Assembly (NCBI GenBank): GCA_903853455.1
Contig: CAINTR010000204.1
Coordinates: 2,339 to 66,338 of the forward strand
Direction of reading: 5' to 3'
DNA length: 64,000 nucleotides
Source of the DNA: an uncultured Magnetospirillum sp.
GTDB lineage: Bacteria > Pseudomonadota > Alphaproteobacteria > Rhodospirillales > Magnetospirillaceae
Numbering within the stretch: the stretch's first letter is position 1; each line of letters begins with the position of its first letter. A program made the translations under genes and the position numbers. Shown here one piece after another: positions 43,687-52,947 of the stretch. The notes below the pieces were generated by a model. That model did not search any database. It saw only the letters and a program-made list of their open reading frames with translations, and was not told the origin of the DNA.

Positions 43687-44577
43687 TTACGCCTTGCCCC
43701 GCAACATGTGGATGATGCCGGAGAAATCCAGGCCGCCGTCGCCGGCTCCGACCATCATGGCGTAGAGTTGGGCTGCCTCGGCGCCCAGCGGCACGGCGGC
43801 GCCTGCCGCGCCTGCCGCTTCCACCGCCAGCTTGAGGTCCTTCAGCATCATGGCGGCGGCGAAGCCGGCCTTGTAGTCGCGGTTGGCCGGCGAGGTCGCC
43901 ACCGGACCCGGCACCGGGCAATAGGTGGTCATGGACCAGTTTTGCCCCGACGACTTGGAGGCGATGTCGAACAGCTTCTGATGCTCGAGCCCCAGCTTCT
44001 CGGCCAGGGCGAAGGCCTCGCAGGTGCCGATCATGGAGATGCCCAGCAGCATGTTGTTGCAGATCTTGGCGGCCTGGCCGTTGCCGGGGCCGCCGGCATG
44101 GACGATGGTCTTGCCCATGACGTCGAGGAACGGCTTGGCGCGGGCGAAGGCGGCATCGGGGCCGCCGACCATGAAGGTGAGCGTCCCGGCCTCGGCGCCG
44201 CCGACCCCGCCGGAGACCGGGGCGTCGATCATGACGTGACCGGCCTCGGCCGCCGCGGTGGCGACCAGACGGGCGGTGGCCACGTCGATGGTGGAGGAAT
44301 CGATGAACAGGGTGCCGGGAGCGGCGGCGGCGAACAGGCCGTCCTCGCCCAGCATCACCGACTTCACATGGGCGCCGGCCGGCAGCATGGTCACCACCAC
44401 ATCGACGCCCCCGGCCGCCTCGCGGGCGCTGTCCACGGCAGTGGCGCCGGCATCGGCGGCGTGACGGCGAGCGAGGTCCGACAGGTCGAAGGCCCTGACC
44501 GCATGTCCCGCCTTCAGCAGGTTGCGCATCATGGGCGCCCCCATATTGCCCAGACCGATGAATCCGACGCTCGCCAT
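43687..44577 (-). CDS. mmsB: 3-hydroxyisobutyrate dehydrogenase
   Basis: FIGLGNMG, DAPVSGG, AKICNN, KDLKLA. Confidence 0.95.
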   Translation of the reverse strand: MASVGFIGLGNMGAPMMRNLLKAGHAVRAFDLSDLARRHAADAGATAVDSAREAAGGVDVVVTMLPAGAHVKSVMLGEDGLFAAAAPGTLFIDSSTIDVATARLVATAAAEAGHVMIDAPVSGGVGGAEAGTLTFMVGGPDAAFARAKPFLDVMGKTIVHAGGPGNGQAAKICNNMLLGISMIGTCEAFALAEKLGLEHQKLFDIASKSSGQNWSMTTYCPVPGPVATSPANRDYKAGFAAAMMLKDLKLAVEAAGAAGAAVPLGAEAAQLYAMMVGAGDGGLDFSGIIHMLRGKA

Positions 44578-44626
44578 GGTGTCCTCCCTTTCTAAGCCCG
44601 AGCCTTGCGGCTCGTCGATTCCCGAC

Positions 44627-45763
44627 CTATTCCGTCAGCGCCCTGCCGATGATCACCCGCATGATCTCGTTGGAGCCTTCCAGGATCTGGTGCACCCGCA
44701 GGTCGCGCAGATAGCGTTCGATCGGGTATTCCTTGATGTAGCCGTAGCCGCCGTGCAGTTGCAGCGCCGCGTCCACCACCTGGAAGCCCATGTCGGTGGC
44801 GATGCGCTTGGCCATGGCGCAGTGCACCGTCGCCTGCGGCGACTTGCGGTCCAACGAGTCGGCGGCGCGGTGGATCATCAACCGCGCCGCGTCCAATTCG
44901 CTGGCCATGTCGGCGAGGCGGAACTGGGTGGCCTGGAAGCCGGCGATGGGCTGGCCGAACTGCTGGCGCTGCTTGGTGTAGTCGACAGCCAGCTCCAGGC
45001 AGCGCCGGGCGCCCCCTAAGGAACAGGCGCCGATATTGATGCGGCCGCCGTCCAGGCCCTTCATGGCGATCTTGAAGCCGTCGCCCTCGGCGCCGATGCG
45101 GTTGGCGACCGGGATGCGGCAATCCTCGAAGATCACCGAGGCGGTGGGCTGGCTCTTCCAGCCCAGCTTGTTCTCCTGCTTGCCGAAGGACAGGCCGGGG
45201 GTTCCGGCCTCCACCACCACGCAGGAGATGCCCTTGGGGCCGGGGGCGCCGGTGCGGACCATCACCACATAGATGTCCGAGCGGCCGCCGCCGGAGATGA
45301 AGGCCTTGGTGCCGTTCAGGACGTAATGGTCGCCGTCGCGCTCGGCCTTGGTGCGCAAGCTGGCGGCGTCGGAGCCGGCATTGGGCTCGGTCAGGCAATA
45401 GCTGGCGAAGCGGCGCATGGTGGTCAGATCGGGCAGCCAGCGGTGGCGCTGGGCCGCGTCGCCGAAGCTGTCGATCATCCACGACGCCATGTTGTGGATG
45501 GAGATATAGGCGGCGGTGGACGGGCAGGCGGCGGCCAGTTCCTCGAAGATCAGGGCGGCGTCGAGCCGCGACAGCGCCGAGCCGCCCACGTCGTCGCGCA
45601 CATAGATGCCGGCGAAGCCCAACGCGGCCGCCTTGCGCAGGGCGTCTTCCGGGAAGACGCTGTCTTCGTCCCAGCGCGCGGCATGGGGCGCCATCTCGCC
45701 CTCGGCGAAATCGTGGGCCGCACGGCGAAAGGCTTCCTGGTCCTCGGAAAGGCCGAAATCCAT
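44627..45763 (-). CDS. Acyl-CoA dehydrogenase (isobutyryl-CoA type)
   Basis: [43 protein letters not shown]; adjacent to mmsB. Confidence 0.9.
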
Positions 45764-45982
45764 ACGTTTCTGTCCCTGTGCCGAAGTCTGCGCCTCGGTT
45801 GTGCCCAAAGAGGGTATCGATCATTGCGACCGATGGGTAAGGAATTATCACAAGGGATGCGATCGGTCCATATCCTGTATACGGAAACACCTAAATTTGT
45901 GTGCAAGAAAGCGATGCGGCTTAGACATGTTCCCCGGAGCATGTATATTGATGCGGTGACGAGCAGGGGTGCGGGAGACGCC

Positions 45983-46642
45983 ATGACCGAGCAGAAACGG
46001 CCGGCAACACGAGCGGAGGAAATCCGCCAGGCCATCGAGAAAGAGATTTTCCAGGGCGTCCTCCGCCCCGGAACCCGGCTGGACGAGGAGAGTCTCGCCA
46101 CCCGGTTCGGCCTGTCGCGCACCCCGGTGCGGGAAGCCATCCTGCAACTGGTCCATTCCGGCTTGGTGGTCAAGAAACCGCGTCAGGGCGCGGTGGTGGC
46201 GCCGCTGGACCTGCACCGCATGGTCCAGATGTTCGAGGTGATGAGCGAGGTCGAGGGCCTGTGCGCCCGCTTCGCCGCACGCCGCATGTCGCCTGACGAA
46301 AAGGCCCATCTGACCGGCTTGCACGCCACCGCCGCCCGCATGTGCGAGGCCCGCGACCTGGACGAATACTATGCCGTCAACCGTGCCTTCCACGAGGCCA
46401 TCTACGACGGCAGCCACAACGAGGTGCTGCAGGAGATGGCGCGCTCGCTGTTCGCCCGGCTGGCGCCCTATCGGCGCTACCAGCTCAACCACCCCCAGCG
46501 GGTCGAGGGCAGCTTCCACGAACATGGCGAGGTGGTCGCCGCCATCGCCGCCGCCGACCCCGACCGGGCCCAGATGGCCATGCGCAAGCACGTCACCATC
46601 CAGGCGGATATCTTCGCCGAATTCGTGTCCATCATGTCGTAG
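45983..46642 (+). CDS. GntR/FadR-family regulator (MatR-like context)
   Basis: LRPGTRLDE..LA.RFGLSRTPVREA wHTH plus FCD domain. Confidence 0.92.
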   Translation: MTEQKRPATRAEEIRQAIEKEIFQGVLRPGTRLDEESLATRFGLSRTPVREAILQLVHSGLVVKKPRQGAVVAPLDLHRMVQMFEVMSEVEGLCARFAARRMSPDEKAHLTGLHATAARMCEARDLDEYYAVNRAFHEAIYDGSHNEVLQEMARSLFARLAPYRRYQLNHPQRVEGSFHEHGEVVAAIAAADPDRAQMAMRKHVTIQADIFAEFVSIMS

Positions 46643-46644
46643 GA

Positions 46645-46676
46645 TTGTATCCAGAAAATAGTACATCTGGATACAA
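46645..46676. promoter_or_regulatory. Inverted repeat upstream of matB, probable GntR operator
   Basis: TTGTATCCAGA-N10-TCTGGATACAA. Confidence 0.55.
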
Positions 46677-46776
46677 AGCGATGGAATCGTGGCGGCGTGT
46701 GTGCTATCGCGGTTGACAGCAATTGCAAAACGCCGTCATGGCCGGGCATGGCGATGAGGGAAGGAGAGGCGCACCA

Positions 46777-48303
46777 ATGCAGTCCAATCTGTTCGAACTG
46801 TTCCGCTCGCGCTTTCCCGCCGACCGGTCGCGTCCGTTCATCGAGGTTCCCGGTGGCGCCACGCTCAGCTATGGCGAGTTGGAGGCGGCCTCCGCCCGCT
46901 ACGCCCATGTGCTGACCGGCGCCGGGGTCAAGCCGGGCGACCGGGTGGCGGTGCAGGTGGACAAGTCGGCCGAGGCGGTGGTGCTGTATCTGGCCTGCGT
47001 GCGGGCCGGCGCCATCCTGCTGCCGCTCAACACCGCCTATCAGTCCGACGAGTTGGAATACTTTCTGTCCGACGCCGTTCCCGCCGCCGTGGTGTGCCAG
47101 CCCCATCGCCTGTCCGAGTTGGAGGCGCTGGCGGTCAAGGCCGGCATCGTCACCTGCGTGCTGACCCTGGGGGCGAAGGGCGACGGCACCCTGCCCGAGC
47201 GGGCCAAGGGCCAGAGCCCGGAGTTTCCCACCACCAGCCGGGGTGGCGACGACATCGCCGCCATCCTCTATTCCTCGGGCACCACCGGGCGGCCCAAGGG
47301 CGCCATGATGAGCCATACCAATCTGGCCAGCAATTCCCTGACCTTGCACCGGCTGTGGGGGTTCCGGCCCGACGACGTGCTGCTGCATTGCCTGCCCATC
47401 TTCCACACCCACGGGCTGTTCGTGGCGATCAACTGCGTGCTGCTGAACGGCACCGCCATGATCTTCTGTCCCAAATTCGACGCCGAGCAGGCCATCGGAC
47501 TGTTGGAGCGCGCCACCGTGTTCATGGGGGTGCCGACCTTCTACACCCGTCTGGTCGCCAGTTCCCGCCTGACGCCCTCGGCCTGTCGCCATATGCGGCT
47601 GTTCATCTCGGGCTCGGCACCGCTGCTGGAGGAGACCTTCAACACCTTTGCCGCCAAGACCGGCCACACCATCCTGGAACGCTACGGCATGACCGAGGGC
47701 GGCATGTTCACCTCCAACCCGCTGATTGGGGACCGCCGCGCCGGCACGGTCGGCTTTCCCCTGCCGGACGTGGATCTCCGCATCACCGGCGAGGAGGGCC
47801 AGGTGCTGCCTGACGGAGAGGTCGGCATCATCGAGGTCAAGGGGCCCAACATCTTCAAGGGCTACTGGAACATGCCGGAGAAGACCAAGGCCGAGTTCAC
47901 CGAGGACGGCTTCTTCAAGTCCGGCGATGTGGGGGTGATCGACGACCGGGGCTATGTCTCCATCGTCGGCCGCGCCAAGGACCTGATCATCTCGGGCGGC
48001 TACAACGTCTATCCTAAGGAGGTGGAGGACGCCATCGACCGCATGGACGGCGTGGTCGAATCCGCCGTGGTCGGCATGCCGCACCCGGATTTCGGTGAGG
48101 CCGGCCTCGCCGTCGTGGTGGCGCCGACCGATTCCGGCCTGACCCCCGACGGGGTGATCGCCGACCTGCGCGGCCGGCTGGCCAATTACAAGGTGCCCAA
48201 GCAGGTGGTGCTGGTCAGCGACCTGCCGCGCAACGCCATGGGCAAGGTGCAAAAGAACGTGCTGCGCGAGACTTATGCCGCCATGTGGAAAAATGGTCTT
48301 TAG
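46777..48303 (+). CDS. matB: Malonyl-CoA synthetase
   Basis: YSSGTTGRPKG, LPIFHTHGL, ERYGMTE, FKSGD, GRAKDLIISGGYNVYP, PRNAMGKVQK. Confidence 0.88.
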   Translation: MQSNLFELFRSRFPADRSRPFIEVPGGATLSYGELEAASARYAHVLTGAGVKPGDRVAVQVDKSAEAVVLYLACVRAGAILLPLNTAYQSDELEYFLSDAVPAAVVCQPHRLSELEALAVKAGIVTCVLTLGAKGDGTLPERAKGQSPEFPTTSRGGDDIAAILYSSGTTGRPKGAMMSHTNLASNSLTLHRLWGFRPDDVLLHCLPIFHTHGLFVAINCVLLNGTAMIFCPKFDAEQAIGLLERATVFMGVPTFYTRLVASSRLTPSACRHMRLFISGSAPLLEETFNTFAAKTGHTILERYGMTEGGMFTSNPLIGDRRAGTVGFPLPDVDLRITGEEGQVLPDGEVGIIEVKGPNIFKGYWNMPEKTKAEFTEDGFFKSGDVGVIDDRGYVSIVGRAKDLIISGGYNVYPKEVEDAIDRMDGVVESAVVGMPHPDFGEAGLAVVVAPTDSGLTPDGVIADLRGRLANYKVPKQVVLVSDLPRNAMGKVQKNVLRETYAAMWKNGL

Positions 48304-48326
48304 CAAAGGTATTTGGACACGAATGA

Positions 48327-48435
48327 ACACGAATAAGGTCGAATAAGGCTCTCTCCACCGCGTGAATGGCCGGGACGAGCCCGGCCATGACGATAATTAG
48401 GTTAAGCCCCCCTCATCATTCGATCTTATTCGTGT
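48327..48435. repeat. Composite palindrome: 18-bp inverted repeats flanking a CGTC-tagged REP hairpin
   Basis: ACACGAATAAGGTCGAAT (48327) / ATTCGATCTTATTCGTGT (48418) around ATGGCCGGGACGAGCCCGGCCATGACG. Confidence 0.7.
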
Positions 48436-48479
48436 CTCCTTGACCGGCGACCGCCGCGAGGAAAGAAGGAAAGTCGGAA

Positions 48480-49514
48480 ATGCATCAGGACATTCATTTC
48501 GAGCGTACTGGAACTCTGGGCCGCATCGTTCTCGACCGGCCCAAGGCGCTCAACGCCCTGACCCTGGACCAAGTCCACGTCATCCATCCGCAGTTGGACG
48601 CCTGGGCCGCCGATCCGGCCGTCACCGCCGTGGTGATCGAAGGGGCGGGCGAGAAGGCGTTCTGCGCCGGCGGCGACATCAAGCTGCTGTTCGAAGCCTG
48701 CAAGGCCGGCGACCGCGAATTCGTCGCCGCCTTCTACCGTGACGAATACCGGCTGAACCGCCGCATCAAGACCATGCCCAAGCCCTATGTGGCCCTGCTC
48801 GACGGCATCGTCATGGGCGGCGGCGTCGGCGTGTCGGTGCATGGCCGCTTCCGCGTCGCCACCGAGCGCACCCTGTTCGCCATGCCGGAAACCGGCATCG
48901 GCTTCTTCCCCGACGTGGGCGGCAGCCATTTCCTGCCCCATCTGCCCGGCGACATCGGCATGTATCTCGGCCTGACCGGGGCACGGCTGAAGGCGGCCGA
49001 CACCCTGCATGTGGGCGTCGCCACCCATTATGTGGAAAGCGAGCGGTTGCCGGCCCTGCGCGAAGCCCTGTCCGAGGCCCGCGACGCCGCCGAGGTCGAG
49101 GCGACGCTGGCCGGCTTCGCCAGCGATCCCGGCCCCGCCGCAATCGACGACAAGCGCGCCCTGATCGACCGCTGCTTCGGCAAGGCCTCCCTGGCGGAGG
49201 TGCTGGCGGCGCTGGCGGCGGAGTCCGACCCTTGGGCGGCCGAGACCCTGGCCGGTCTCGTCAAGAAGTCGCCCCATCTGGTGGCGGTCAGCTTCGAGAT
49301 GATCCGGCGCGGCCGGACCATGAGCTTCGACGACTGCATGAAAATGGAATTCCGCCTCGCCATGGAACTGGCGCCGGCCCACGATTTCGTCGAGGGGGTG
49401 CGCGCCCTGCTGATCGACCGCGACAACACGCCCGACTGGCGCAAGGCGGGCGCCGCCGCCGAGGTGCTGGCACCGTTCGACACGGTGCCGGCCTGCGGCG
49501 ACCTGACGTTCTAG
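48480..49514 (+). CDS. 3-hydroxyisobutyryl-CoA hydrolase-like enoyl-CoA hydratase family protein
   Basis: LDRPKALNAL, FCAGGD, MGGGVG, FAMPETGIGFFPDVG, DFVEGVRA.LID. Confidence 0.92.
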   Translation: MHQDIHFERTGTLGRIVLDRPKALNALTLDQVHVIHPQLDAWAADPAVTAVVIEGAGEKAFCAGGDIKLLFEACKAGDREFVAAFYRDEYRLNRRIKTMPKPYVALLDGIVMGGGVGVSVHGRFRVATERTLFAMPETGIGFFPDVGGSHFLPHLPGDIGMYLGLTGARLKAADTLHVGVATHYVESERLPALREALSEARDAAEVEATLAGFASDPGPAAIDDKRALIDRCFGKASLAEVLAALAAESDPWAAETLAGLVKKSPHLVAVSFEMIRRGRTMSFDDCMKMEFRLAMELAPAHDFVEGVRALLIDRDNTPDWRKAGAAAEVLAPFDTVPACGDLTF

Positions 49515-49630: not shown

Positions 49631-49951
49631 TCAGTTGTCGCGCGGGCCGCAGCGGCGCGAGCGGTGGTGGCGGTGCTCCTCTTCCGCGGCGCAGCAGCTG
49701 CACAGCCGGGCCTTGGGATTGGCCCGCAGGCGTTCGGGTTCGATGGTGTCGGTGCACGACCGGCACACCCCCGACGACGGCGCTCCGGCCATGCGGCCGA
49801 GAACGGACCTGAGGGCGGCTTCGGTGAAAACTTCAGACCGTTCGGCGGCGTAATCAAGATCGTCCAACCAATCCTCCTCGCGCTTTTGGCGGCTGGAGAG
49901 TGGCAGGCTCGGGCGCCGAGGAACAATGAAGAGTTCGTGTCGGTCGGCCAT
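49631..49951 (-). CDS. TraR/DksA-family C4 zinc-finger protein
   Basis: DDLDYA (DxxDxA) followed by a helix and CRSC-X17-CSCC; 106 aa. Confidence 0.8.
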   Translation of the reverse strand: MADRHELFIVPRRPSLPLSSRQKREEDWLDDLDYAAERSEVFTEAALRSVLGRMAGAPSSGVCRSCTDTIEPERLRANPKARLCSCCAAEEEHRHHRSRRCGPRDN

Positions 49952-50015
49952 GGTGTCGCCATATTTCCGTGGAGAATACAAAGCCCGGACGTTGAAGACG
50001 TCACGGAAGCTTCGC

Positions 50016-50029
50016 TTGAAGGCTTTCAA
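50016..50029. promoter_or_regulatory. FNR/Crp-like palindrome in the divergent promoter
   Basis: TTGAA-GGCT-TTCAA. Confidence 0.4.
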
Positions 50030-50077
50030 CCCGGGGATTAAGCAATGCCCACCGTTCACCGCCGAGATTCTCAGACG

Positions 50078-50287
50078 ATGAGCCCCGCTCACGACGATTT
50101 CCGCCATTGCCCCCATTGCGGCCGCCGCACCCGCCACTCCATCGTGAGCGAGCGGGTCCTGGCGCCGGTTCTGTGGTGCCTGGGCTGCTTCCACACCCGG
50201 GTCGGCGACGACGAGACGTCGGGCCATGCCGCGCCGGCTCCCGTGGCGCGGACCGGCGCAAAGCAGGTCTTCCGCCTGGCGGGTTGA
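50078..50287 (+). CDS. Small zinc-ribbon protein
   Basis: CPHC-X19-CLGC in 69 aa. Confidence 0.6.
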   Translation: MSPAHDDFRHCPHCGRRTRHSIVSERVLAPVLWCLGCFHTRVGDDETSGHAAPAPVARTGAKQVFRLAG

Positions 50288-50352: not shown

Positions 50353-50550
50353 ATGAGCGACGTCGAAGCCCTCAAGGCCGAGGTCAAGAAGCTGAGCGCC
50401 CAGGCGATTCAGTCCAAGATGGACCTGCATGATCTGTCCGAGGAACTTCCCATCAACTGGGAGCGCATTCCCGAGGTGGCCAAGGCCTGCCACGACCTCT
50501 ACGCCCGCCTGACCGACGCCCGCGCCCGCCTGAAGCAAGCGGGGGGATGA
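50353..50550 (+). CDS. CCE_0567-family (Rop-like, nif-associated) small protein
   Basis: LKAEVKKL...A...KMDLHDLSEELP.NW..I...A. Confidence 0.85.
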   Translation: MSDVEALKAEVKKLSAQAIQSKMDLHDLSEELPINWERIPEVAKACHDLYARLTDARARLKQAGG

Positions 50551-50593: not shown

Positions 50594-51415
50594 CTAAAGA
50601 TCGATGGTCTCGATCTCCGACGCCGCGATGGCCCACGGCACGAAGACGCGGGCCACCCGGGCGAAGCGCTCCGGCGCGTCGGTGGCCAGGTAGCGGATGG
50701 TTCCCTGGCCGTCGGCGGGGGCTTTCAGATGCCTCAGCGACAACAGGTCCTCGATCACCATGGCGGTGGTCGAGGCCGAGTCCACCACCGCCACCTCCGG
50801 TCCCAGCAGGCGATGGAACAGCGGCGCCAGCGCCGGAAAATGGGTGCAGCCCAGCAACAGGCAATCGGCGGAATCCGGCCCGGTGAACAACGGGTCGAGG
50901 TAATGCCGGGCGATCTGCTCGGCGATGGGGCCGTCCACCATGCCCTCTTCCACCATGGAGACGAACAGCGGGCAGGCCAGCTGTGTCACCTGGGCGCCGG
51001 GGCGGGAATGCAGGATGGCGCGGGGATAGGTTCCCGCCTGGACGGCGCTTTCGGTGGCGACCACCACGATGCGGCCGCGCGCCGAGGCCGCCGCCGCCGC
51101 CGCCGCGCCGGGCTCCACCACGCCGATCACCGGCAGGCCGGGGAACTCGGCTCTGAGGGCTTCCAGCGCATGGGCCGACGAGGTGTTGTCGGCCACCAGC
51201 AGGGCCTTGATGCCGTAGGAGACCAGCCGGCGCGAGGCTTCCAGCGCATAGGCGGCCACGGTCTGGGCGCTTTTGGTGCCGTAGGGCAGGCGGGCGGTGT
51301 CGCCGAGATAGATCAGCGATTCGGCGGGCAGGCGCTCGCGCACCGCTTTCAGCACGGTCAAGCCCCCGACGCCCGAATCGAAGATGCCGATGGGCAGACG
51401 CGATGCCTTGTTCAT
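50594..51415 (-). CDS. murI: Glutamate racemase with atypical active site (first Cys replaced by Asp)
   Basis: IGIFDSGVGGLTV, YLGDTARLPYG, LVADNTSS (normally ACNTA), LGCTHFP. Confidence 0.9.
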   Translation of the reverse strand: MNKASRLPIGIFDSGVGGLTVLKAVRERLPAESLIYLGDTARLPYGTKSAQTVAAYALEASRRLVSYGIKALLVADNTSSAHALEALRAEFPGLPVIGVVEPGAAAAAAASARGRIVVVATESAVQAGTYPRAILHSRPGAQVTQLACPLFVSMVEEGMVDGPIAEQIARHYLDPLFTGPDSADCLLLGCTHFPALAPLFHRLLGPEVAVVDSASTTAMVIEDLLSLRHLKAPADGQGTIRYLATDAPERFARVARVFVPWAIAASEIETIDL

Positions 51416-51544
51416 GACCCGATCCTTCGGTAACCCTGGGTCTTCTTATCCGGTCCGGCCGGTCCGGGGCAACCCATAAAGGACTGGCCCCGCTGCTGGC
51501 TTCGTCGTACCGTTCCCGGCTCGAATCATCGGCAAGGACATGGC

Positions 51545-52243
51545 ATGACGCCGGCGCTGGACAGGGAAATCCTGCTGCAACTGCAATTCGCCCCCCTGTT
51601 CACCGGGGTGGTGGAAAAGGACATGCGGGGCCTGCTGGAGGGCGCCGAAATCCTGTCGCTGCCGCCCGAGCGTCAGCTCTATCGGGAAGGCGAGCCGGTG
51701 GACTGCTTCTATGTGGTGCTGGACGGTCATGTGGAGCTGTCGCTGGAGTCCGGCGGGCGCAAGAGCGTGGTCGAGGTGGCGCGCCGCTCCGCCGTGCTGG
51801 GCGACGCCGCCATGTTCGGCTCCGGCCGCTACATCATGTCGGCGCGGGTGCTGACCCAGGCGAGCCTGCTGGCCATTCCGGCGGCGGCGTTCCGCGCCCG
51901 CCTGGAAGGCCGCATGGACATCCTGCTGCACATGCTGACCACCATGTCGCTGCGGCTGCGCATGCTGGTGCGCCAGATCGCCGAGCTGAAGCTGAAGACC
52001 ACCGCCCAGCGGCTGGGCAGCTTCCTGCTGACCATGGTGGAGACCGATGAGGGCCGTGCCGAGCTGCGCTTTCCCTACGACAAGAAGCTGGTGGCCGACC
52101 AGTTGGGCATGAAGCCGGAAAGCCTGTCGCGCGCTCTGGGCAAGCTGGCGCGGCTGGGGGTCGAATCGCGGCCCGACAATTCGGTGGTCGTCGCCGACGT
52201 GGCGCGGCTGCGCGACTTCTGCGCCGAAGACGAGGTGGGATGA
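51545..52243 (+). CDS. Crp/Fnr-family regulator (no FNR Cys cluster)
   Basis: cNMP-type beta-barrel, TTAQRLGSFL, LGMKPESLSR recognition helix. Confidence 0.92.
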   Translation: MTPALDREILLQLQFAPLFTGVVEKDMRGLLEGAEILSLPPERQLYREGEPVDCFYVVLDGHVELSLESGGRKSVVEVARRSAVLGDAAMFGSGRYIMSARVLTQASLLAIPAAAFRARLEGRMDILLHMLTTMSLRLRMLVRQIAELKLKTTAQRLGSFLLTMVETDEGRAELRFPYDKKLVADQLGMKPESLSRALGKLARLGVESRPDNSVVVADVARLRDFCAEDEVG

Positions 52244-52947
52244 TGGGCACCCTGGCATCCTCCGATCTCGACCTCGTCGCCCAGGCTCCCCTGCTGGCCG
52301 GGCTTGGCACCGGCGAGCTGGCGGTGCTGCTGGACGGCGCCCATGTGCAGGCCTATCCCGAGGTGGAACTGCTGTTCAGCCAGGGCGACAAGGCCGACCG
52401 CTTCTTCGTGGTGCTGGAAGGCCGGGTCAACCTGTTCGCCCTGACCGAGACCGGCGACCAGTCCATCATCGAGGTGTTCGATCCCATCTGCACCTTCGCC
52501 GAGGCGGCCATCTTCTCGTCGGGCATTTTCCCGCTCAACTGCGAGGTGGCGGCCGGGTCGCGGCTGGTCCACATCCCGGCGGCGCTGTTCCTCAAACGGT
52601 TGGCCGACAACCCGGCCATGGGGCTGACCCTGCTGTCCGGCCTGTCGCGCTGGCAGACCCGTCTGGTCCACGAGATCAGCGAGTTGAAAAGCAAATCGCC
52701 CAGCCAGCGTCTCGCCACCTTCCTGCTGGCCCTGGCGGCGAAGGAGGTCGGGAGCGGCAATTCCGAACGGGTGCGCCTGCCGCTGACCAAGTCGGTGCTG
52801 GCCAGCCGTATCGGCATCGCGCCGGAAAGCCTGTCGCGGGCGCTGAACCGCCTCAAGGCGGTGGGCGTGGAAACCCACGGCCGCGAGGTCGAGATCACCG
52901 ACATCGAGGCGCTGCGCCGCCTGGTCCGCGACGGCGGCGGCGACTAA
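52240..52947 (+). CDS. Second Crp/Fnr-family regulator (tandem, ATGA overlap)
   Basis: FSQGDKADRFFVVLEG, FAEAA, SPSQRLATFL, IGIAPESLSR. Confidence 0.92.
   Translation: MMGTLASSDLDLVAQAPLLAGLGTGELAVLLDGAHVQAYPEVELLFSQGDKADRFFVVLEGRVNLFALTETGDQSIIEVFDPICTFAEAAIFSSGIFPLNCEVAAGSRLVHIPAALFLKRLADNPAMGLTLLSGLSRWQTRLVHEISELKSKSPSQRLATFLLALAAKEVGSGNSERVRLPLTKSVLASRIGIAPESLSRALNRLKAVGVETHGREVEITDIEALRRLVRDGGGD

What the first reader, a model, noticed from the sequence alone, without database searches (positions are those of the whole stretch)
50594..51415. Glutamate racemase with Asp in place of the first catalytic cysteine
DNA near 51175-51200 encodes LLVADNTSSAH where MurI has ACNTA; the second site GCTH is intact. 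In the two-Cys mechanism the first Cys deprotonates D-Glu and the second deprotonates L-Glu. A Cys-to-Thr change at the equivalent site makes E. coli YgeA (EcL-DER) an L-to-D unidirectional enzyme. An Asp/Cys pair would be an unusual catalytic dyad: a one-way racemase, a different substrate, or a non-catalytic paralog.
Basis: partly seen in the sequence, partly recalled or inferred. Interest (0 to 1): 0.6.

Follow-up and report, generated by a model that had tools for sequence, protein, structure and literature searches.

The report
Conserved Asp-for-Cys glutamate racemase paralog
Magnetospirillum-type bacteria keep a normal glutamate racemase plus a second, even better conserved copy in which one of the two catalytic cysteines is always aspartate; it cannot use the textbook two-thiol mechanism, and its real job has never been tested.

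Summary
Window 50594-51415 (-) encodes a 273-aa MurI-family protein with VADNTSS (Asp76, codon GAC at 51190-51188) where every other MurI examined has xACNTA; GCTH (Cys190) is intact.

It is neither an error nor strain-private:
- Asp76 and a coupled Ala79-to-Ser change are fixed in 110 of 121 nearest protein clusters.
- Both are present in all 39 species genomes checked by motif, across 11 genera of one family, including the model strains AMB-1, MS-1 and MSR-1. All annotate it as "glutamate racemase".

In 51 of 52 genomes a canonical Cys/Cys paralog lies elsewhere (own genome: contig C213, 56% identical).

The Asp copy forms one clade, sits at what looks like the ancestral murI locus, keeps every other glutamate-pocket residue and evolves more slowly than the canonical copy (dN/dS about 0.15).

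A subclade has also lost Cys190 (to Ala) yet stays under similar purifying selection.

Best reading (0.4): a non-redundant, glutamate-binding paralog that no longer works as a two-base racemase and has a regulatory or partner role. Main rival (0.3): an active Asp/Cys racemase with altered kinetics.

No paper describing it was found. It is a new variant of a known kind. The scan has noted other cysteine-less MurI homologs elsewhere, but not this one.

The parts
50594..51415 (-). MurI-family gene (273 aa, P0001), the Asp76/Cys190 'D-type' paralog
   Evidence: ORF and translation. PF01177 scores 60 bits. TIGR00067 scores 209.7 bits against a cut-off of 146.65, but equivalog NF002035 scores 217.7 against a cut-off of 328. 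AlphaFold2 mean pLDDT is 94.4. Foldseek best hits are solved MurI structures with TM about 0.9.
51188..51190 (-). Codon GAC = Asp76, at the position of the first (D-face) catalytic cysteine
   Evidence: Aligned to the Cys of the CNT motif in PDB MurI chains. All 150 diverse representatives have Cys here. Asp is present in 110 of 111 D-type clusters, with one Gly, and in 39 of 39 genomes checked. In the model it is the residue just before helix 77-90, the N-cap position.
51179..51181 (-). Codon TCG = Ser79, a change coupled to Asp76 (Ala in all Cys/Cys relatives of this lineage)
   Evidence: Ser in 48 of 48 D-type sequences; Ala in 36 of 36 Cys/Cys sequences. Among the 150 representatives the column reads A 121, V 18, S 6, I 4, G 1. 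In the model it is position N3 of helix 77-90.
50846..50848 (-). Codon TGC = Cys190, the retained second (L-face) catalytic cysteine in GCTH
   Evidence: Cys in about 95% of D-type clusters. Replaced by Ala (GCC) in P0024, P0061, P0065, P0071, P0078, L024 and L075.
51416..51544 (.). Divergent intergenic region between the D-type murI and the first Crp/Fnr gene
   Evidence: Alignment of 19 orthologous spacers shows a conserved TGGAAC-N17-TACGGT-like box facing the Crp gene. No FNR/NNR-type TTGAT-N4-ATCAA box was found here.
51545..52947 (+). Two tandem Crp/Fnr-family regulator genes; a frequent divergent neighbour, not shown to be functionally linked
   Evidence: Pfam cNMP_binding plus HTH_Crp_2 in both. 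Adjacent to the D-type gene in most loci of genera g1 and g24, in g2, and in several metagenome contigs.
50356..50550 (+). Rop-like (PF05082) 64-aa gene, convergent with the D-type murI; a recurrent neighbour of unknown relevance
   Evidence: Pfam 99.8 bits. Found tail-to-tail with the D-type gene in many g1 and g24 loci.

Best explanation
This is a functionally diverged, non-redundant paralog of glutamate racemase ('D-type MurI'). It arose once in an ancestor of the Magnetospirillum/Paramagnetospirillum group. It appears to sit at the ancestral murI locus, while a second Cys/Cys copy elsewhere most likely supplies D-glutamate for the cell wall. The D-type protein keeps the MurI fold and the whole glutamate pocket. 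It has replaced the D-face thiol with Asp76, together with Ala79-to-Ser; in the model these two occupy the N-cap and N3 positions of the active-site helix, like a helix capping box. I infer that it still binds glutamate or a close analogue but no longer runs the two-thiol racemisation at a useful rate. I infer that its selected function is binding-based: sensing D/L-glutamate and acting on a partner. Candidate partners are the canonical MurI, in a prozyme-like heterodimer, or another target, as in the racemisation-independent DNA gyrase inhibition known for some MurI proteins. Shown: conservation, single origin, purifying selection, an intact pocket, co-occurrence with a canonical copy, and tolerance of losing Cys190. 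Inferred: loss of racemase activity, ligand binding, and the identity of any partner.
For: (1) Asp76 lies at the catalytic Cys position, and 150 of 150 diverse MurI representatives have Cys there. (2) The D-type forms one clade (SH-aLRT 99). It is present in 52 genomes of 11 genera, and 51 of these also carry a Cys/Cys paralog. Both copies being retained argues against redundancy. (3) Purifying selection: dN/dS has a median of 0.146, against 0.177 for the canonical copy. Mean pairwise identity is 0.749 against 0.640, higher in 152 of 153 genome pairs. There are 112 invariant sites against 67, with extra conservation in segments 85-95, 216-226 and 246-260, which would fit an added interaction surface. 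(4) Only four positions separate the D-type from all Cys/Cys relatives: D76, S79, R228 and V259. D13, S14, D39, P44-Y45-G46, N77, T78, T121, E156, T191 and H192 are unchanged. (5) A subclade (six sequences from five protein clusters; two DNA loci) has also replaced Cys190 with Ala. It keeps all other motifs and shows dN/dS of 0.23, within the 0.14-0.27 seen for neighbouring D/C pairs. The selected function therefore survives without either thiol. (6) In the AlphaFold2 model (pLDDT 94.4), helix 77-90 starts right after Asp76. (7) Precedent: gyrase inhibition by MurI is reported to be uncoupled from racemisation (review PMC10886550).
Against: Cys190 is kept in about 95% of D-type clusters over long divergence. 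That is expected for a working catalytic residue and less so for a pure binding protein. Asp76 is essentially never replaced by Ser, Ala or Asn (one Gly in 111 clusters), which suggests the carboxylate itself matters and could be a general acid/base. The D-type copy evolves more slowly than the canonical one, resembles single-copy outgroup MurI more closely (62% against 56-57%) and shares cytochrome c/DUF4383 synteny with a single-copy Cys/Cys murI; this is the pattern expected of the copy that kept the ancestral job. One MAG (G003, 99% complete, 340 contigs) has only the D-type copy. No partner is encoded next to the gene, and no interaction could be tested.
Confidence: 0.4

Rival explanations
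1. It is still a glutamate racemase that uses a carboxylate/thiol pair. Cys190 deprotonates L-Glu, and pre-activates the substrate by protonating its alpha-carboxylate. Asp76, with its pKa raised by the neighbouring Asp13 and tuned by Ser79, delivers or removes the proton on the D face. This would be an isozyme with altered, strongly asymmetric kinetics or regulation; it might even be the main D-Glu source, kept at the ancestral locus.
For: The complete pocket and Cys190 are retained and Asp76 is invariant. It evolves more slowly and lies closer to single-copy MurI than the Cys/Cys paralog does. It shares synteny with the single-copy murI of G007. G003 lacks the canonical copy. Asp and Glu are used as racemase or epimerase bases in other families (PMC8142540). 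Pre-activation by the second Cys is computed to lower the C-alpha pKa from 22.8 to 14.4 (PMC9169614), which could bring proton abstraction within reach of a carboxylate.
Against: D/A variants lacking Cys190 persist under purifying selection. No natural or engineered Asp/Cys amino-acid racemase was found in the searched literature. A desolvated carboxylate is a poorer pKa match than a thiolate for the C-alpha proton of an amino acid. A plain isozyme would be redundant, yet both copies are kept in 51 of 52 genomes. G003 is a fragmented MAG and carries a Dat-like class IV aminotransferase (226 bits) that could supply D-Glu.
Confidence: 0.3
2. It is an enzyme with new chemistry on glutamate or a glutamate-like dicarboxylate. 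One option is a one-base reaction (elimination, isomerisation or tautomerisation of a more acidic C-H), in which Asp76 is the key base and Cys190 is auxiliary. This would be analogous to Cys-to-Thr turning a proline-racemase-like epimerase into a dehydratase.
For: A precise, invariant Asp76/Ser79 pair replaces Cys/Ala. Losing Cys190 is tolerated. Precedents exist for catalytic-Cys substitutions that change reaction type in cofactor-independent racemase folds: trans-3-hydroxy-L-proline dehydratase, and elimination reactions by MurI itself (PMC8142540).
Against: Apart from residues 76 and 79 the pocket is unchanged from genuine MurI, so there is no sign of re-tooling for a different substrate. 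No pathway genes are consistently adjacent; the neighbours are regulators, or cytochrome c/DUF4383 genes that predate the change.
Confidence: 0.15
3. It is a sequencing error, a strain-private mutation or a decaying pseudogene.
For: None, beyond the presence of a canonical murI elsewhere.
Against: The same codon is present in 39 genomes and 14 metagenome contigs. The ORFs are intact, dN/dS is about 0.15, and the gene is more conserved than the canonical copy.
Confidence: 0.01

Closest known systems
Glutamate racemase MurI/RacE (EC 5.1.1.3; TIGR00067; e.g. PDB 2gzm, 1zuw, 2jfu, 5w16)
   Same: Same fold (TM about 0.9, rmsd 1.7-2.4 A) and 33-40% identity to solved structures. All glutamate-contacting motifs are present (DSGVGG, PYG, NT, T121, E156, GCTH). 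It scores over the TIGR00067 cut-off.
   Different: The first catalytic Cys is Asp and the Ala three residues later is Ser. It misses the NF002035 equivalog cut-off (217.7 against 328). It co-exists with a true Cys/Cys paralog, and a subclade lacks both thiols.
EcL-DER (E. coli O157 L-Asp/Glu racemase, Thr83/Cys197) and MMP0739 (Cys/Thr)
   Same: [quoted passage not shown]
   Different: They belong to a different subfamily: TIGR00035 asp_race scores only 16.8 bits here against a cut-off of 93.1. The substituting residue is Thr, not Asp. They are not MurI-type.
MurI proteins that moonlight as DNA gyrase inhibitors (E. coli, B. subtilis YrpC, M. tuberculosis, M. smegmatis)
   Same: They show that a MurI fold can have a binding-based function uncoupled from racemisation (PMC10886550).
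   Different: Those proteins keep both cysteines and remain racemases. No gyrase link was tested or is indicated here.
Dead-paralog partner subunits (prozyme-type pseudoenzymes), and other cysteine-less MurI homologs noted earlier in this scan (e1-2251354, e1-5041789, e1-2391782)
   Same: A catalytic residue has been lost, purifying selection is strong, and the protein co-occurs with an active paralog.
   Different: Here only one thiol is replaced, always by Asp, and the ligand pocket is fully kept. No interaction has been shown. The earlier notes concern other lineages with Ser/Ser or fully degenerate sites, and I did not check them.

Membership tests
Glutamate racemase MurI (EC 5.1.1.3) | Asp/Glu racemase fold and a family HMM score over the curated cut-off | tested here: met
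   PF01177 scores 60 bits against a cut-off of 31. TIGR00067 scores 209.7 against 146.65. Foldseek best hits are all MurI, with TM 0.86-0.91.
Glutamate racemase MurI (EC 5.1.1.3) | Two catalytic cysteines (Cys74 and Cys185 in B. subtilis numbering) | tested here: not met
   The first is Asp76; the second, Cys190, is present. All 150 representatives have Cys at the first site.
Glutamate racemase MurI (EC 5.1.1.3) | Conserved substrate-binding and auxiliary residues (DS of DSGVGG, Asp39, PYG, NT, Thr121, Glu156, TH of CTH) | tested here: met
   These are invariant in alignment A1 and in the 150 representatives.
Glutamate racemase MurI (EC 5.1.1.3) | Stricter equivalog models (NF002035, NF002034) | tested here: not met
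   217.7 against a cut-off of 328, and 103.2 against 408.
Glutamate racemase MurI (EC 5.1.1.3) | Interconverts L- and D-glutamate and supplies D-Glu for peptidoglycan | not testable with these tools
   This needs an enzyme assay, complementation or a knockout. The AMB-1 RB-TnSeq and MSR-1 Tn5 supplements held here contain no entry for either murI gene.
Aspartate/amino-acid racemase subfamily (EcL-DER/YgeA/RacX type, TIGR00035) | Family HMM score over the cut-off | tested here: not met
   16.8 bits against a cut-off of 93.1.
Pseudoenzyme or regulatory paralog of an active enzyme | Catalytic residue lost, purifying selection retained, active paralog in the same genome | tested here: met
   Asp76; dN/dS about 0.15; a Cys/Cys paralog in 51 of 52 genomes.
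Pseudoenzyme or regulatory paralog of an active enzyme | Lack of catalytic activity, and physical or functional interaction with a partner | not testable with these tools
   No multimer prediction or experiment was available. The D/A subclade under selection is indirect support only.

The most novel reading that the evidence does not exclude
The D-type protein is a catalytically competent glutamate racemase that uses an Asp/Cys (carboxylate/thiol) dyad. That would be the first such pair in a cofactor-independent amino-acid racemase. It may also be the main D-glutamate source, kept at the ancestral murI locus in magnetotactic spirilla, with kinetic or redox properties that a two-thiol enzyme cannot offer.
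Probability: 0.3. Interest if true: 0.7.

Novelty: new variant of a known kind. Interest (0 to 1): 0.55.

Why it matters
Glutamate racemase is a textbook two-thiol enzyme and an antibacterial target, and every genome annotation pipeline names this protein "glutamate racemase". Here a whole bacterial family, including three genetically tractable model magnetotactic strains, keeps a copy that cannot use that mechanism, and this copy is more constrained than the orthodox one.

If it is active, it defines a new catalytic dyad for carbon-acid deprotonation without a cofactor. If it is inactive, it is a clean natural case of an enzyme turned into a ligand-binding regulator while its substrate pocket stays intact.

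Either way the annotation is probably wrong for one of the two genes. The question can be settled with simple assays in existing strains.

Tried and rejected
- **Regulation by the adjacent Crp/Fnr pair.** I looked for an FNR/NNR box in the 129-bp spacer and found none. The conserved spacer element looks like a sigma-70-type promoter for the Crp gene, not for murI.
- **Redox or NO-linked function inferred from neighbours.** Candidate neighbours were the Crp pair, DUF2249, an oxidase-like membrane protein and hemerythrin, or cytochrome c plus DUF4383. I do not count this as evidence, because the cytochrome c/DUF4383 synteny is also found beside a single-copy Cys/Cys murI (G007). It therefore predates the Cys-to-Asp change.
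- **Genetic data.** The AMB-1 RB-TnSeq data set and the MSR-1 Tn5 supplements held here contain no glutamate racemase entry. The AMB-1 table holds only a subset of genes, so this is uninformative.
- **Literature.** Searches for glutamate racemase with Magnetospirillum, or with catalytic cysteine and paralog, gave no papers. Two reviews or structure papers I wanted were not held.
I obtained contexts through the genome search, the fetch from genomes and the search for related loci instead.
- **Phylogeny.** The careful IQ-TREE search did not finish on one CPU in two runs. The statements rest on the quick tree with SH-aLRT supports.
- **Active-site geometry.** Model coordinates are not exposed to scripts, so Asp76-Ser79, Asp76-Asp13 and Asp76-Cys190 distances could not be measured.
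- **Alternative D-Glu source in the window's own genome.** None was found: only an IlvE-like class IV aminotransferase (108 bits against a cut-off of 277) and no other PF01177 member.

Full report
**What is in the window.** The ORF at 50594-51415 (minus strand) is real. It encodes 273 aa (P0001), has third-position GC of 0.89 like its neighbours, and has a plausible ribosome-binding site. It matches Pfam Asp_Glu_race (60 bits). It scores 209.7 bits on NCBIfam TIGR00067 glut_race (cut-off 146.65), but stays below the stricter equivalog NF002035 (217.7 against 328).

Counted from Met1, the aspartate is Asp76 (GAC, 51190-51188), the retained cysteine is Cys190 (TGC, 50848-50846), and Ser79 is TCG at 51181-51179. 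HMMER alignments to 23 distinct solved MurI sequences put Asp76 opposite the first catalytic cysteine of the CNT motif.

**Not an error and not strain-private.**
- Among the 121 nearest 90%-identity protein clusters, 110 carry VADNTSS. These are 64-92% identical to the query.
- One cluster has Gly at this position. The Cys/Cys forms begin at about 63% identity.
- In a family-wide search of 83 species genomes, 52 have a hit of D-type identity (65% or more). These include all 21 genomes of the window's genus and 21 of 22 of a second genus, and span 11 genera in total.
- All 39 loci I fetched read VADNTSS, as do 14 metagenome contigs, with codon GAC or GAT.
- Exact-sequence look-up names the carriers: Paramagnetospirillum magneticum AMB-1, P. 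magnetotacticum MS-1, P. caucaseum, P. kuznetsovii, strains ME-1 and XM-1, and Magnetospirillum gryphiswaldense MSR-1. All are annotated "glutamate racemase".
- Outside this clade the substitution was not seen. All 150 of the best 50%-cluster representatives from 1.84 billion proteins have Cys in that column.
- In 251 genomes sampled across the order, this MurI lineage occurs only in the window's own family.

**A canonical copy exists.**
- The window's genome (100% complete) has exactly two PF01177/TIGR00067 genes. The second, on contig C213, reads VVACNTAS and LGCTHFP and is 56% identical to the D-type copy.
- The same pairing holds in 51 of the 52 D-type genomes.
- The exception is G003, a 340-contig MAG. 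There neither the family model nor the canonical protein finds a second copy. It does carry a Dat-like class IV aminotransferase (226 bits; cut-off 277).
- The window's own genome has no such alternative source of D-glutamate.

**Evolution.**
- In a maximum-likelihood tree (quick search), the D-type sequences form one clade (SH-aLRT 99) and the co-resident Cys/Cys paralogs form another (SH-aLRT 100).
- Both join a polytomy with single-copy Cys/Cys genes from related genera, for example Telmatospirillum. One Cys-to-Asp event after a duplication, or after acquisition of a second copy, is the simplest reading.
- Across 18 genomes with both copies, the D-type copy is the slower one. Mean pairwise identity is 0.749 against 0.640, higher in 152 of 153 pairs. 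There are 112 invariant sites against 67. The D-type copy is 62% identical to the single-copy outgroups, against 56-57% for the canonical copy.
- Pairwise dN/dS within the genus has a median of 0.146 for the D-type and 0.177 for the canonical copy.

**Gene neighbourhood.** The D-type gene has two recurrent divergent neighbours:
- a Crp/Fnr pair followed by DUF2249, a membrane protein and hemerythrin, as in this window;
- a cytochrome c plus DUF4383 pair.

One contig has both arrangements in series (L081). The cytochrome c/DUF4383 arrangement also flanks the single-copy Cys/Cys murI of G007. The D-type gene therefore appears to occupy the ancestral murI locus. For the same reason, its neighbours say little about its new function.

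**What changed and what did not.**
- Only four alignment positions separate all D-type from all Cys/Cys sequences: D76, S79, R228 and V259.
- Every residue that the MurI literature and structures place around glutamate is unchanged: D13-S14, D39, P44-Y45-G46, N77-T78, T121, E156 and T191-H192. The assignment of these residues to the pocket rests on my own knowledge plus the PDB alignments.
- The AlphaFold2 model is confident (pLDDT 94.4) and superposes on solved MurI structures at TM about 0.9.
- In the model, helix 77-90 starts directly after Asp76. This makes Asp76 the N-cap and Ser79 the N3 residue, which is the geometry of a helix capping box. That is an inference, because the coordinates could not be inspected.
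- Segments 85-95, 216-226 and 246-260 are much more conserved in the D-type than in the canonical copy. This would fit an added interaction surface.

**The double-loss subclade.**
- Six D-type sequences (five protein clusters with about 24 member sequences; two with DNA in hand, L024 and L075) also replace Cys190 with Ala (GCC).
- They are 79-97% identical to one another and keep every other motif.
- They occur in both neighbourhood types.
- They show dN/dS of 0.23, the same range as neighbouring D/C pairs (0.14-0.27).

Whatever is selected in these proteins needs neither thiol.

**Interpretation.** The canonical mechanism has the first Cys abstracting the C-alpha proton of D-Glu. The second Cys does the same for L-Glu and also pre-activates the substrate (PMC8142540; PMC9169614). 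The known exceptions in the superfamily are Thr/Cys (EcL-DER) and Cys/Thr (MMP0739). The review lists no Asp/Cys pair, and my searches found no paper on this protein.

I rank the readings as follows.
1. **A glutamate-binding, non-racemase paralog with a regulatory or partner role (0.4).** It is favoured by the D/A subclade, by the retention of both copies and by the extra conserved surfaces. MurI's racemisation-independent gyrase inhibition is a precedent (PMC10886550).
2. **An active Asp/Cys racemase with altered kinetics (0.3).** It is favoured by the invariance of Asp76, the retention of Cys190 in about 95% of clusters, the slow rate, the ancestral locus and the G003 case.
3. **New one-base chemistry on a glutamate-like substrate (0.15).**
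4. **Artefact or pseudogene (0.01 or less).**

A strictly one-way racemase is constrained by the Haldane relation; this is my inference.

**Earlier scan notes.** A note on the adjacent Crp/DUF2249/hemerythrin module (e1-5256773) agrees with my Pfam results for those genes. Notes on cysteine-less MurI homologs in other lineages show that such variants recur, but none concerns this clade. I did not check them.

**Verdict.** This is a new variant of a known enzyme family, it occurs in model organisms, and its function is unresolved but directly testable.

Noticed in passing
G000 contig C213 (L002:1396-2277, minus strand): This is the canonical Cys/Cys murI of the same genome. It lies next to a GT4 glycosyltransferase gene. 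It evolves faster than the Asp copy in 152 of 153 genome pairs, which is unusual for the presumed housekeeping enzyme.
   Followed up: partly
G003 (L033/L074) in the same family: This 99%-complete MAG has only the Asp-type murI. It also carries a class IV aminotransferase scoring 226 bits on the D-amino-acid aminotransferase model (cut-off 277). This is either an assembly gap or a genome that makes D-Glu in another way.
   Followed up: partly
L064-L069: Other genera of the family, and all other sampled families of the order, carry only a MurI about 35% identical to this one. The whole lineage, Asp type plus its Cys/Cys sisters, therefore looks like a replacement or acquisition specific to part of this family.
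   Followed up: partly
window 50356-50550 (+): A 64-aa Rop-like protein (PF05082, a family seen in nitrogen-fixation clusters) lies tail-to-tail with the Asp-type murI. The adjacency recurs in several genera.
   Followed up: partly
L033, L035, L038, L031, L043, L076, L081: A cytochrome c (about 180 aa) plus DUF4383 gene pair is divergently linked to murI across many genera. It is found beside both the Asp-type gene and a single-copy Cys/Cys gene. The reason for the linkage is unknown.
   Followed up: partly
window 51416-51544 and orthologous spacers: A conserved TGGAAC-N17-TACGGT-like element lies upstream of the first Crp/Fnr gene in 19 aligned spacers. No FNR-type palindrome is present.
   Followed up: partly
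window 43687-49514: A valine and branched-chain catabolism cluster: 3-hydroxyisobutyrate dehydrogenase, acyl-CoA dehydrogenase, an AMP-binding ligase and an ECH_2 hydrolase.
   Followed up: no
window 49631-50227 (-): A DksA/TraR-type C4 zinc-finger protein (PF01258, 31.5 bits) lies beside the Rop-like gene.
   Followed up: no
G047 (genus g24): A 2.6-Mb genome, 97% complete, has no match to either murI copy at E <= 1e-20.
   Followed up: no
P0069 (metagenome cluster): This is the single D-type relative with Gly instead of Asp at position 76 (VAGNTSS). It also has several other changes in conserved blocks and may be decaying.
   Followed up: no
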